Shown here piece by piece: positions 31,001-33,160 of a stretch of DNA of 64,000 bases. This DNA is from Escherichia coli. GTDB lineage: Bacteria; Pseudomonadota; Gammaproteobacteria; Enterobacterales; Enterobacteriaceae. The stretch's first letter is position 1. Every line of letters starts with the position of its first letter. The stretch is from the NCBI RefSeq assembly GCF_044324785.1, contig NZ_CP172127.1, one strand, 5' to 3'. The position numbers are program-made.

Positions 31001-33160
31001 TAGCGCCAGCCAGACAATTAATAGCGACGGCGAGCGCCATTCGCGCCAGAACCAACGTGCAATCATGCTTCCTCCTGCAACTGCCCGTTCATCAGCCGTA
31101 AGCAGCGGTCGCAGCGTGCCGCCAGTTGCAGATCGTGGGTCACCATAATCAACGTGGTGCCATGTTCACGGTTGAGGGAAAACAGCAGGTCGGCAATTTT
31201 ATCGCCCGTCTGGCGGTCAAGGTTGCCGGTGGGTTCGTCGGCAAACAGCACATCAGGTCGACCATTAAAAGCTCGCGCCAGCGCCACTCGTTGCTGTTCG
31301 CCGCCGGAAAGCTGTGCCGGAAGATGATCAAGACGTTTACCCAGCCCTAACTGTTCGAGCAACGCTTTCGCTCCGTTACGACTTTCCGCGCTACTCTCAC
31401 CGCGCAGCAGCGCCGGAAGCTCGACGTTTTCCAGCGCGTTAAGGGTAGGAATTAACATAAATGACTGAAAAACAAAGCCTACGTGCTTCGCGCGCAACTT
31501 TGCCCGCGCTTCTTCGTCCATATTATGTAGCGGTTGTCCCACCAGACTCACTTCGCCACTGCTGCCGTCATCCAGCCCGGCGAGGATCGCCAGCAAGGTT
31601 GACTTACCCGATCCCGACTCACCCACCAGTGCGATGGTCTCGCCACGTTTGACAACCAGCTCAACTCCGGTGAGGATGGAGAGTTCATGCTCCCCCTGAC
31701 CGACGGACTTCTTAAGATGATGAACTTCAACAATGTTTTCCGCTGGCATTTGCCCTTCCTGTTCCTGGTCCTGTTAACCTTCCGTGCCGCCGCAGCGGAC
31801 ACGTTATTGATTCTGGGTGATAGCCTGAGCGCCGGGTATCGAATGTCTGCCAGCGCGGCCTGGCCTGCCTTGTTGAATAATAAGTGGCAGAGTAAAACGT
31901 CGGTAGTCAATGCCAGCATCAGCGGCGACACCTCGCAACAAGGGCTGGCGCGCCTTCCGGCTCTGCTGAAACAGCATCAGCCGCGCTGGGTGCTGGTAGA
32001 ACTGGGCGGCAATGACGGTTTGCGTGGTTTTCAGCCACAACAAACCGAGCAAACGCTGCGCCAGATTTTGCAGGATGTCAAAGCCGCCAACGCTGAACCA
32101 TTGTTAATGCAAATACGTCTGCCTGCAAACTATGGTCGCCGTTATAATGAAGCCTTTAGCGCCATTTACCCCAAACTCGCCAAAGAGTTTGATGTTCCGC
32201 TGCTGCCCTTTTTTATGGAAGAGGTCTACCTCAAACCACAATGGATGCAGGATGACGGTATTCATCCCAACCGCGACGCCCAGCCGTTTATTGCCGACTG
32301 GATGGCGAAGCAGTTGCAGCCTTTAGTAAATCATGACTCATAAAGCAACGGAGATCCTGACAGGTAAAGTTATGCAAAAATCGGTCTTAATTACCGGATG
32401 TTCCAGTGGAATTGGCCTGGAAAGCGCGCTCGAATTAAAACGCCAGGGTTTTCATGTGCTGGCAGGTTGCCGGAAACCGGATGATGTTGAGCGCATGAAC
32501 AGCATGGGATTTACCGGCGTGTTGATCGATCTGGATTCACCAGAAAGTGTTGATCGCGCAGCCGACGAAGTGATCGCCCTGACCGATAATTGTCTGTATG
32601 GGATCTTTAACAATGCCGGATTCGGCATGTATGGCCCCCTTTCCACCATCAGCCGTGCGCAGATGGAACAGCAGTTTTCTGCCAACTTTTTCGGCGCACA
32701 CCAGCTCACCATGCGCCTGTTACCCGCGATGTTACCGCACGGTGAAGGGCGTATTGTGATGACCTCATCGGTCATGGGATTAATCTCCACGCCGGGTCGC
32801 GGCGCTTACGCAGCCAGTAAATATGCGCTGGAGGCGTGGTCAGACGCGCTGCGCATGGAGCTACGCCACAGCGGAATTAAAGTCAGCCTGATCGAACCCG
32901 GTCCCATTCGTACTCGCTTCACCGACAACGTCAACCAGACGCAAAGTGATAAACCAGTCGAAAATCCCGGCATCGCCGCCCGCTTTACGTTGGGACCGGA
33001 AGCGGTGGTGGACAAAGTACGCCATGCTTTTATTAGCGAGAAGCCGAAGATGCGCTATCCGGTAACGCTGGTGACCTGGGCAGTAATGGTGCTTAAGCGC
33101 CTGCTGCCGGGGCGCGTGATGGACAAAATATTGCAGGGGTGAGTTGAAGCGCGCGCTTAA

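What the first reader, a model, noticed from the sequence alone, without database searches (positions are those of the whole stretch)
31717..31749. Divergent tesA and ybbA overlap by 33 bp at their 5' ends
With tesA starting at the ATG at 31,717 (MMNFNN...) and ybbA starting at the complement of 31,747-31,749, the two start regions overlap on opposite strands, so each promoter lies inside the other gene. I recall the same arrangement in K-12, so this is conserved rather than new, but it implies transcriptional interference between a thioesterase and an ABC transporter.
Basis: partly seen in the sequence, partly recalled or inferred. Interest (0 to 1): 0.2.

Follow-up and report, generated by a model that had tools for sequence, protein, structure and literature searches.

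The report
Head-to-head overlap of tesA and ybbA
The first codons of an E. coli lipid-cleaving enzyme gene (tesA) and of its partner transporter gene (ybbA) really do share the same 30-33 bases on opposite strands; this is a genuine, conserved but already documented arrangement, so it is ordinary rather than new.

Summary
tesA (+, ATG 31717 or 31720) and ybbA (-, ATG at complement of 31747-31749) overlap head-to-head by 33 bp (30 bp from the second ATG). K-12 has the same arrangement, and the 33-mer is essentially identical in 5414 of 5426 complete E. coli genomes.

A non-overlapping tesA start is excluded. There is no downstream Met before the catalytic Ser. The only alternative, TTG at 31750, is not a start codon in several Enterobacterales and would remove the signal peptide's only positive charge.

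Published K-12 TSS maps put the tesA TSS at window 31685, inside ybbA (-35 TTGACA 31649-54). Weak ybbA TSSs lie 155-390 nt inside tesA. Each promoter therefore sits in the other gene and the transcripts overlap by at least 220 nt. Functional interference has not been shown.

The arrangement is already in the literature. A 2025 PLoS Biol paper shows that YbbAP and TesA form one complex and notes the operon overlap. ExcludonFinder (2025) lists tesA-ybbA as a divergent excludon.

Spacing is usually near zero, often a shared CATG, and the 30-33 bp overlap is specific to Enterobacterales.

The parts
31717..32343 (+). tesA CDS (thioesterase I / protease I / lysophospholipase L1), 208 aa plus stop. 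An alternative start lies at 31720 (207 aa). The signal peptide is residues 1-26 and the mature protein starts at Ala27.
   Evidence: ORF and translation. 99% identical to K-12 tesA. PDB chains 1IVN and 9GE8_T begin at residue 27, ADTLLILGDS.
31063..31749 (-). ybbA CDS (ABC ATPase of the YbbAP type VII transporter), 228 aa plus stop.
   Evidence: Residues 1-228 align end to end with PDB 9GE6/7/8 YbbA. An ATG at the homologous position is found in the sampled loci.
31717..31749 (.). Dual-coding overlap: tesA codons 1-11 (MMNFNNVFRWH) on + and ybbA codons 1-11 (MPAENIVEVHH) on -, with codons in register.
   Evidence: Third-position entropy is 0.14-0.16 here against 1.1-1.2 elsewhere in 19 Enterobacterales sequences. 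The 33-mer is essentially invariant in E. coli.
31649..31654 (+). tesA promoter -35 hexamer TTGACA (perfect consensus), antisense to ybbA Val32-Val33-Lys34.
   Evidence: Promoter sequence given with the K-12 TSS in Kim et al. 2012. My own scan recovers it. The Val32 GTT and Val33 GTC third positions are invariant in 19/19 sequences, and synonymous constraint drops sharply just upstream.
31672..31677 (+). tesA promoter -10 hexamer GAGGAT (3/6 match), 17-bp spacer.
31685..31685 (+). tesA transcription start (K-12 519021 in NC_000913.2; 45 reads; 32-nt leader), inside ybbA codon 22.
   Evidence: Kim et al. 2012 supplementary file 2. Coordinates were transferred because the window is identical to K-12 over 31622-31878.
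31753..31761 (-). ybbA Shine-Dalgarno-like purine tract (CAGGAAGGG then CAA-ATG), antisense to tesA signal-peptide codons Pro13-Phe-Leu-Phe16.
   Evidence: Read directly from the sequence. These positions are largely conserved in Enterobacterales.
31904..31904 (-). Proximal ybbA TSS candidate (K-12 518802; 2 reads; 155-nt leader), inside tesA codon 63.
   Evidence: Kim et al. 2012. Weak evidence: the window differs from K-12 at 31908 and no conservation signal is seen there.
32091..32136 (-). Distal ybbA TSS candidates: 32091 (Cappable-seq 518615, score 2.45) and 32136 (Kim 518570, 2 reads). A sigma-70-like TTTGCA(32129-32124)-18-AACAAT(32105-32100) predicts a start near 32093.
28652..31066 (-). 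ybbP (MacB-type permease, 804 aa). Its start overlaps the ybbA stop by 4 bp.
32333..33142 (+). ybbO (aldehyde reductase), co-directional with tesA. Its start overlaps the tesA 3' end by 11 bp.

Best explanation
This is a genuine head-to-head overlap of two real genes whose products work together. TesA is a periplasmic SGNH hydrolase that docks onto the YbbAP type VII ABC transporter.

Shown: the first 10-11 codons of tesA (the positively charged n-region of its Sec signal peptide) and the first 10-11 codons of ybbA are written on opposite strands of the same 30-33 bp. The tesA promoter is TTGACA-17-GAGGAT with a start at 31685 and a 32-nt unstructured leader. It is embedded in ybbA codons 22-34 and is conserved there at synonymous sites. 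The ybbA ribosome-binding site is the antisense of tesA signal-peptide codons. The weak ybbA starts lie 155-390 nt inside tesA. The two units therefore fire from face-to-face promoters, and their mRNAs are complementary over at least 220 nt.

Inferred: the ancestral state was start codons abutting with no intergenic DNA, often a shared CATG. That state is possible because both promoters sit in the partner's coding sequence. Enterobacterales then moved the tesA start about 10 codons upstream into ybbA. The most likely consequence is low, roughly constitutive expression of both units with at most modest mutual damping, through antisense pairing or RNA-polymerase collision. A strong on/off switch is less likely.

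The confidence given (0.8) refers to the anatomy: a real overlap, embedded promoters and antisense transcript overlap. The claim that cross-talk is weak or modest is much less certain.
For: Both proteins are real: PDB 1IVN and 9GE8_T match mature TesA 27-208, and 9GE6-8 match YbbA 1-228. The complex and the operon overlap are described in PMC12646458.

The tesA start lies in the overlap. ATG at codon 1 and/or 2 is conserved in 19 Enterobacterales loci. Codon 12 is CTC, TGG, TAT, TTA or TTT in Rahnella/Edwardsiella, C. werkmanii, Pantoea, Photorhabdus and Acerihabitans. The only basic residue of the n-region (Arg9) is inside the overlap. The space between the ybbA ATG and the GDSL Gly is only 66-69 nt.

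TSSs come from Kim 2012 and Cappable-seq and match sequence-predicted promoters. The K-12 sequence is identical to the window across the core.

Synonymous-site entropy in ybbA is 0.16 for codons 1-11, 0.73 for 12-21 and 0.61 for 22-34, against 1.22 for 35-220 (p = 2.5e-6, 0.008 and 2.7e-4). The boundary falls at the -35 hexamer.

The tesA leader and start region is unusually unstructured (z = +1.98; 200/200 shuffles fold at least as well). Overlapping transcription was detected in at least 50% of 58 RNA-seq samples (PMC12288877).

All 80 loci have a divergent ybbA. Of the 78 I could resolve, 68 overlap or have a gap of 14 nt or less. That splits into 25 overlapping by at least 20 bp, 31 between +2 and -3, and 12 between -10 and -14.
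Against: No experiment shows that either promoter affects the other gene. The ybbA TSSs rest on 2-3 reads or near-threshold Cappable-seq scores. They disagree between datasets and leave no conservation footprint in tesA. The -10 element of the tesA promoter is poor (3/6), and a simple consensus scan missed the promoter. Synonymous constraint near a gene's 5' end can also reflect translation-initiation effects on ybbA itself. Ten of the 78 resolved loci have gaps of 34 to about 440 bp, so tight spacing is not obligatory. My start-codon calls outside Enterobacterales are heuristic, and related genomes are not independent observations. The TSS data are from K-12, not from this strain.
Confidence: 0.8

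Rival explanations
1. Annotation artefact. On this reading tesA really starts downstream of ybbA, at the in-frame TTG at 31750, so the coding sequences do not overlap. The K-12 start was simply propagated by homology.
For: Several gene callers pick this start. Homologues of 197 aa (194 aa in Salmonella) begin at codon 12, and K. pneumoniae KPN_00472 is annotated at 594 nt. No strong Shine-Dalgarno sequence precedes 31717. Only the mature N-terminus (Ala27) has been seen experimentally.
Against: Codon 12 is not a start codon in at least six Enterobacterales genera, while an ATG at codon 1 or 2 is always present. Starting at 31750 would give a 15-residue signal peptide with no basic residue. The frame upstream stays open and MNF[NK]xVFRWH is conserved. 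In Rahnella a stop codon sits immediately before ATG-ATG, which marks it as the first possible start. The K-12 TSS at 31685 gives a 32-nt leader that suits 31717/31720. The region is unusually unstructured. Calls that avoid overlaps are what algorithms penalising opposite-strand overlaps would be expected to produce (my inference).
Confidence: 0.04
2. A selected regulatory device, a divergent excludon. On this reading the embedded face-to-face promoters and complementary 5' regions are maintained because they couple or reciprocally limit hydrolase and transporter expression. The means would be polymerase collision and/or RNase III cleavage of the mRNA duplex. That selection would explain why near-zero spacing persists across Proteobacteria.
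For: tesA-ybbA is listed among only 16 divergent excludons in E. coli. Divergent adjacency is found in 80/80 loci, and 68 of 78 have gaps of 14 nt or less, across several orders. An in-frame CATG junction occurs in 32 of 56 non-Enterobacterales loci, against roughly 8% expected by my rough estimate. The tesA promoter is conserved inside ybbA. The products form one complex, so their stoichiometry could matter.
Against: No expression data show anticorrelation or coupling. Mutually exclusive expression would be odd for subunits of one complex. Both promoters appear weak, so collisions over 220-450 bp should be rare (inference from the read counts). The ybbA promoter position is not conserved. Some lineages tolerate gaps of 34 to about 440 bp. 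Deletion bias with no need for intergenic regulatory DNA explains the near-zero spacing equally well.
Confidence: 0.25
3. A neutral by-product with no functional consequence. On this reading genome compaction removed a spacer that carried no regulatory DNA. A start-codon shift in the Enterobacterales ancestor then extended the TesA signal peptide into ybbA. The overlap would persist only because any change now damages two proteins at once.
For: The spacing distribution piles up at the physical floor where start codons abut (+2, 0, -1, -2, -3). Occasional excursions go both ways: 20-78 bp overlaps in Shewanella, Enterobacterales and Pectobacterium, and gaps of 34 to about 440 bp elsewhere. The extreme conservation inside the overlap is what dual coding alone predicts. 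Both transcripts are weak.
Against: It does not by itself explain why this pair, unlike the nine neighbouring divergent pairs with 69-300 bp spacers, can do without intergenic promoters. It also does not explain why the embedded tesA -35 hexamer is held invariant at synonymous sites. It is not exclusive of the main explanation, because it differs only in denying any cross-talk.
Confidence: 0.35

Closest known systems
E. coli K-12 tesA (b0494) / ybbA (b0495) locus as annotated in RefSeq and described by McAndrew et al. 2025 (PLoS Biol, PMC12646458)
   Same: Same genes, same orientation and same 33-bp overlap. The window is identical to K-12 across 31622-31878. [quoted passage not shown]
   Different: Nothing in the core. 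The window's strain has 18 substitutions across 1.3 kb, including TesA D54N and YbbA V220M relative to the PDB/K-12 sequences. PGAP annotation of the nearest strain uses the second ATG, giving a 30-bp overlap.
Divergent excludons (overlapping 5' regions of divergently transcribed neighbours; ExcludonFinder, NAR 2025, PMC12288877)
   Same: tesA-ybbA is explicitly listed among the 16 divergent excludons of E. coli MG1655. Transcripts from opposite strands overlap at their 5' ends.
   Different: In the excludon concept the overlap causes mutually exclusive expression, partly through RNase III. That has not been shown for this pair. Here the overlap also includes coding sequence on both strands, not only untranslated regions.
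Head-to-head (divergent) overlapping protein-coding genes in prokaryotes
   Same: Two CDSs share their 5' termini on opposite strands, which is the definition used in PMC3887535 and PMC2542354.
   Different: Many annotated divergent overlaps are suspected start-codon misannotations (my general knowledge). This one is backed by conservation, signal-peptide logic and TSS data.
Face-to-face (convergent) promoter pairs that show transcriptional interference, such as the coliphage 186 pR/pL switch (recalled from general knowledge, not checked here)
   Same: Two promoters fire towards each other, so elongating polymerases traverse the opposing promoter.
   Different: In the classic cases one promoter is strong and interference has been measured. 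Here both are weak, 220-450 bp apart, and no interference has been measured.

Membership tests
Head-to-head overlapping CDS pair | Both reading frames encode real, expressed proteins | tested here: met
   About 99% identical to K-12 TesA and YbbA. Matches solved structures 1IVN, 9GE8_T and 9GE6-8.
Head-to-head overlapping CDS pair | The true start codons, not merely the annotated ones, place the 5' ends of the two CDSs on the same bases | tested here: met
   The ybbA ATG is fixed by homology and a Shine-Dalgarno-like tract. The tesA ATG at 31717/31720 is conserved, while the non-overlapping TTG 31750 is not a start codon in six genera. There is no direct initiation-site experiment. The overlap length (33 or 30 bp) is unresolved.
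Head-to-head overlapping CDS pair | The overlap is conserved beyond what single-strand coding predicts | tested here: met
   Third-position entropy is 0.14-0.16 in the overlap against 1.1-1.2 elsewhere. The 33-mer is essentially invariant in 5414 E. coli genomes.
Divergent excludon | Each gene's TSS lies beyond the other's, so the transcripts overlap in antisense | tested here: met
   This rests on published K-12 maps transferred to the window: tesA TSS 31685 and ybbA TSSs 31904/32091/32136. ExcludonFinder lists the pair. The ybbA starts are weakly supported.
Divergent excludon | Expression of one gene reduces expression of the neighbour (mutually exclusive expression) | not testable with these tools
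   I found no expression-correlation or promoter-knockout data for this pair.
Divergent excludon | RNase III-dependent processing of the sense/antisense duplex | not tested
   The dsRNA dataset I tried to reach (PMC3939876) was not held in the library.
YbbAP-TesA type VII ABC transporter-hydrolase system | TesA SGNH/GDSL hydrolase with a cleavable signal peptide, next to a YbbA ATPase and a YbbP MacB-type permease | tested here: met
   The GDSL motif and the invariant G34, D35, S36, G97, N99, D180 and H183 are present. The mature N-terminus is at residue 27. YbbA matches the 9GE6-8 chains. ybbP (804 aa) lies immediately downstream.
Sec-type signal peptide (TesA residues 1-26) | Basic n-region, hydrophobic core and a small-x-small cleavage site | tested here: met
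   The sequence MMNFNNVFRWH-LPFLFLVLLTF-RAAA|A was inspected by eye, and the cleavage position agrees with the PDB chains. No dedicated predictor was available.

The most novel reading that the evidence does not exclude
The near-zero head-to-head spacing of tesA and ybbA could be under selection. The spacing is often a shared CATG in which the two start codons overlap by 2 bp, and it is kept across Gamma- and Betaproteobacteria. On this reading it is a compact antisense and convergent-promoter device that sets the ratio of a periplasmic lipid hydrolase to the ABC transporter that feeds it. The Enterobacterales 30-33 bp coding overlap would be a derived elaboration of that device.
Probability: 0.2. 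Interest if true: 0.45.

Novelty: already known. Interest (0 to 1): 0.22.

Why it matters
The finding as stated adds nothing new. The overlap has been in the K-12 annotation for decades, was noted in the 2025 YbbAP-TesA structure paper, and is catalogued as a divergent excludon.

Its practical value is threefold. First, it warns about annotation: gene callers give tesA lengths of 189, 194, 197, 207, 208 and 218 aa, and the versions that avoid the overlap truncate the signal peptide. Second, it constrains engineering. tesA is widely manipulated for fatty-acid production, and deleting or recoding its 5' end also removes the ybbA start, its ribosome-binding site and probably its promoters. In the same way, edits in ybbA codons 22-34 hit the tesA promoter. 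Third, it offers a tidy natural test case. The partner genes of one complex are locked together with no intergenic DNA across many proteobacteria, so one can ask whether 5'-overlapping transcription has any regulatory effect.

Tried and rejected
1. The built-in sigma-70 scan found no promoter in 31300-32200. It missed the experimentally mapped tesA promoter because the -10 matches only 3/6. A looser scan of my own recovered it, plus a distal ybbA candidate.

2. Several attempts to find more TSS, dsRNA or start-site data failed:
- Thomason 2015 (PMC4288677) and PMC3939876 are not held in the library.
- The SMRT-Cappable-seq supplements have no entries for these genes.
- Conway 2014 and ExcludonFinder have no supplements held as text.
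- The TRAINSPOTTER N-terminomics supplements have no TesA or YbbA peptides.
- Only the + strand part of the Cappable-seq table is stored, so the tesA strand could not be cross-checked there.

3. I looked for a conservation footprint of the ybbA promoter inside tesA and found none (codons 63-80, p = 0.25).

4. The upstream in-frame ATG at 31687 (the 218-aa version) is rejected. It lies 2 nt from the TSS, it is not conserved (CTG/GTG in some genera), and Rahnella has a stop codon right before ATG-ATG.

5. By eye, a FadR-like half-site (CTGGTCC at 31764-31770) and a sigma-E-like GAACTT (31722-31727) lack the second half or the -10 element, so I dropped both.

6. Rfam found no RNA family at the site. 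The ybbA leader shows no unusual folding.

7. The RpoD genomic-SELEX paper mentions ybbAP only in connection with the rhsD promoter.

8. I searched two papers on overlapping genes for how often divergent overlaps occur and found no usable numbers. I used a local 50-kb K-12 sample instead.
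Full report
WHAT IS THERE

The window reads ...CTTAAG ATG ATG AAC TTC AAC AAT GTT TTC CGC TGG CAT TTG CCC.... On the + strand the tesA frame has ATG codons at 31717 and 31720 and runs to 32343. On the - strand ybbA starts at the complement of 31747-31749 and runs to 31063 (228 aa). The two coding sequences share 31717-31749, which is 33 bp, with codons in register. tesA His11 (CAT) is the antisense of the ybbA ATG. The tesA ATG-ATG is the antisense of ybbA His10-His11.

K-12 MG1655 is annotated identically: tesA 519139..519765 (-) and ybbA 519733..520419 (+). The locus is core E. coli, present in 5418 of 5426 complete genomes. The 33-mer is essentially invariant, at least 99% identical in 5414 genomes. 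The surrounding 1.1 kb is only 95-99% identical in 3233 of them.

In the adjacent 50 kb of K-12 the nine other divergent CDS pairs are separated by 69-300 bp. This pair is therefore unusual locally.

ARE THE START CODONS RIGHT?

This is the only way the observation could fail, and gene callers do disagree. Homologues are annotated at 218, 208, 207, 197, 194 and 189 aa. The closest RefSeq strain has tesA starting at the second ATG, giving a 30-bp overlap.

The ybbA start is secure:
- Its 228 residues align end to end with the YbbA chains of PDB 9GE6-8.
- A purine-rich Shine-Dalgarno-like tract (CAGGAAGGG, 31753-31761) precedes it.
- An ATG lies at the homologous position in the sampled loci.

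For tesA, solved structures show only the mature protein from Ala27 (1IVN, 9GE8_T). Four lines of evidence place the start in the overlap:
- There is no Met between the overlap and the catalytic Ser36. The only non-overlapping option is TTG at 31750.
- That codon is CTC, TGG, TAT, TTA or TTT in Rahnella/Edwardsiella, Citrobacter werkmanii, Pantoea, Photorhabdus and Acerihabitans. An ATG at codon 1 and/or 2 is always present.
- Starting at 31750 would leave a 15-residue signal peptide with no basic residue, because Arg9 lies in the overlap.
- Only 66-69 nt separate the ybbA ATG from the GDSL glycine codon in Enterobacterales.

The upstream ATG at 31687 is not conserved. Rahnella has a stop codon immediately before ATG-ATG.

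Which of the two ATGs is used cannot be decided. The first is ACG in four genera and the second is CTG in Photorhabdus. The overlap is real and is either 33 or 30 bp. The mature protein is the same either way.

PROMOTERS AND TRANSCRIPTS

Kim et al. 2012 (PMC3415461, supplementary file 2) give a tesA TSS at 519021 (NC_000913.2, 45 reads, 32-nt leader). The upstream sequence they list is identical to window 31635-31685. The window is identical to K-12 from 31622 to 31878. The TSS therefore maps to 31685, with a perfect -35 TTGACA (31649-54), a 17-bp spacer and a weak -10 GAGGAT (31672-77). My own scan predicts a start near 31684 from that pair. This promoter lies in ybbA codons 22-34.

For ybbA the evidence is thin:
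- Kim lists 518802 (2 reads, mapping to 31904) and 518570 (2 reads, mapping to 32136).
- Cappable-seq (PMC4782308) lists + strand starts at 518615 (score 2.45, mapping to 32091), 518388 and 518168. There are none closer to ybbA.
- A sigma-70-like TTTGCA-18-AACAAT predicts a start near 32093.

Every reported ybbA start lies inside tesA. The promoters therefore face each other across 220-450 bp, and the mRNAs are complementary over at least 220 nt. That is far more than the 33 bp of coding overlap.

ExcludonFinder (PMC12288877) lists tesA-ybbA among the 16 divergent excludons found in at least 50% of 58 MG1655 RNA-seq samples.

CONSERVATION FOOTPRINTS

I aligned 19 Enterobacterales sequences and measured third-codon-position entropy.

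| Region of ybbA | Content | Entropy | p vs codons 35-220 |
|---|---|---|---|
| Codons 1-11 | coding overlap | 0.16 | 2.5e-6 |
| Codons 12-21 | tesA leader | 0.73 | 0.008 |
| Codons 22-34 | tesA TSS to -35 | 0.61 | 2.7e-4 |
| Codons 35-220 | rest of gene | 1.22 | - |

The lowest 13-codon windows all fall within codons 1-34. Constraint collapses immediately upstream of the -35 hexamer, whose two synonymous positions are invariant in 19/19 sequences.

On the tesA side only codons 1-11 (0.14) are clearly constrained, with a non-significant dip over codons 12-18 (the ybbA ribosome-binding site). There is no footprint at the reported ybbA starts.

The tesA leader plus first 25 codons is unusually unstructured. 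Its MFE is -11.8 kcal/mol against -16.9 +/- 2.6 for shuffles, and all 200 shuffles fold at least as well. That fits initiation from an open, AU-rich region with a weak Shine-Dalgarno sequence. The ybbA side is unremarkable.

WIDER COMPARISON

A TesA profile retrieved 80 loci from Enterobacterales, Vibrionaceae, Pseudomonas, Shewanella, Methylococcales, Halomonas, Marinobacter, Dokdonella, Cupriavidus, Massilia and others. All 80 carry a ybbA homologue directly upstream on the opposite strand.

I called starts by homology for ybbA and by signal-peptide logic for tesA, curated by hand.

| Spacing class | Loci | Taxa |
|---|---|---|
| Overlap 30-33 bp | 19 | Enterobacterales |
| Overlap 39 bp | 1 | Enterobacterales MAG |
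| Overlap 78 bp | 2 | Pectobacterium (about 45-bp insertion that codes on both strands) |
| Overlap 20-35 bp | 3 | Shewanella |
| CATG junction (+2 bp) | 20 | Vibrio, Photobacterium, Psychromonas, Rheinheimera, Halomonas, Nitrincola, Cycloclasticus, Dokdonella, Cupriavidus and others |
| CATATG, or gap of 1-3 nt | 11 | various |
| Gap 10-11 nt | 11 | Pseudomonas (the tesA GGAG abuts the ybbA start codon) |
| Gap 14 nt | 1 | Proteobacteria MAG |
| Gap 34 to about 440 nt | 10 | Marinobacter, Methylophaga, Porticoccus, Aeromonas, Massilia, Salinicola and others |
| Unresolved | 2 | Vibrio mexicanus; Vibrio sp. S17_S38 |

Near-zero spacing is therefore the common and probably ancestral state. The 30-33 bp overlap is an Enterobacterales-specific upstream shift of the tesA start. 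The ybbA-start-to-GDSL distance is about the same (66-79 nt) in Enterobacterales and in most CATG taxa.

Three caveats apply. Related genomes are not independent observations. The 80 loci are those scoring best against E. coli TesA. My start calls are heuristic.

HOW IT MOST LIKELY WORKS

Shown:
- The start regions are dual-coding.
- A conserved tesA promoter lies inside ybbA.
- The ybbA ribosome-binding site is antisense to tesA signal-peptide codons.
- The ybbA starts lie inside tesA.
- Transcription overlaps in antisense.

Inferred:
- Both promoters sit in the partner's coding sequence, so no intergenic DNA is needed. Deletion bias has shrunk the spacer to the point where the start codons abut.
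- In Enterobacterales the signal-peptide n-region was then extended into ybbA.
- Cross-talk between the units is probably modest. Read counts suggest both promoters are weak, so polymerase collisions should be rare. Any effect is more likely through pairing of the complementary 5' regions.
- A strictly mutually exclusive 'excludon' would be odd for two parts of one complex. McAndrew et al. 2025 (PMC12646458) show that TesA co-purifies with YbbAP and is seen on YbbP by cryo-EM.

I put about 0.25 on a selected regulatory coupling, about 0.35 on no functional cross-talk at all, and the remainder on weak incidental damping.

COMPARISON WITH WHAT IS KNOWN, AND VERDICT

The arrangement is annotated in K-12. 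[quoted passage not shown] It is catalogued as a divergent excludon. The finding as stated is already known and of low interest.

Its interpretation is right about the embedded promoters and the K-12 precedent. It goes beyond the evidence in treating interference as implied, and it missed that the two genes encode partners.

- A downstream tesA start is excluded.
- A conserved embedded tesA promoter has been located.
- The ybbA promoter turns out to be weak and not conserved in position.
- Near-zero head-to-head spacing, often a shared CATG, is widespread across Proteobacteria.

Noticed in passing
window 31717-31722; L083 12421-12450: Public annotations disagree on the tesA start. K-12 uses the first ATG (208 aa, 33-bp overlap). 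PGAP in the closest strain uses the second (207 aa, 30-bp overlap). Metagenome gene callers give versions of 218, 197, 194 and 189 aa.
   Followed up: yes
window 31685-31689: An in-frame ATG at 31687 lies only 2 nt downstream of the mapped tesA TSS (a near-leaderless position) and would add 10 residues (MLPLTDGLLK). It is not conserved across genera, so it was judged non-functional, but this has not been tested experimentally.
   Followed up: partly
window 32333-32343 and 31063-31066: There are same-strand overlaps at both outer ends of the pair. The ybbO start overlaps the tesA 3' end by 11 bp. The ybbP start overlaps the ybbA stop by 4 bp (ATGA), which suggests translational coupling within each operon.
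   Followed up: no
L015 and L016 (Pectobacterium), about 3001-3078: An insertion of about 45 bp sits inside the overlap and is open on both strands. It lengthens the TesA n-region and moves the ybbA ATG 15 codons upstream, giving a 78-bp head-to-head overlap.
   Followed up: partly
L042, L051, L060 and other Pseudomonas loci, junction CATGGAGAATCCGATG: In Pseudomonas the tesA Shine-Dalgarno sequence (GGAG) directly abuts the ybbA start codon, with a 10-nt gap. The CATG also creates an in-frame upstream ATG (MENPMR...), which is probably not used.
   Followed up: partly
window 28072-28159 (-): Rfam match to AgrB (RF02891, 57.5 bits, gathering score 40), lying past the 3' end of ybbP (28652) on the side where the closest annotated strain carries an RHS element. 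As I recall, the named AgrB of K-12 is at a different locus, so this may be a related repeat.
   Followed up: no
window 14984-15050 (-) and 37132-37209 (+): Rfam matches to the enterobacterial sRNA STnc480 (87 bits) and to naRNA4/CssrE (64.6 bits).
   Followed up: no
window 31879 (TesA residue 55) and 31092 (YbbA residue 220): This strain differs from the K-12/PDB sequences: TesA has Asn where K-12 has Asp (LLNNKW against LLNDKW), and YbbA has Met220 where K-12 has Val. There are 18 substitutions over 31050-32360, and none between 31622 and 31878.
   Followed up: partly
L083 17967-21557 (closest strain; the corresponding part of the window was not inspected): The closest annotated strain carries extra genes between ybbJ and cueR (a YadA-like protein, a lipoprotein and hypothetical proteins) and a type I secretion system next to cueR. 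These are absent from the K-12 gene order.
   Followed up: no
L021 (Candidatus Pantoea persica): ybbA is broken into several fragments while the junction and the tesA start are retained. This looks like gene decay in a symbiont.
   Followed up: no
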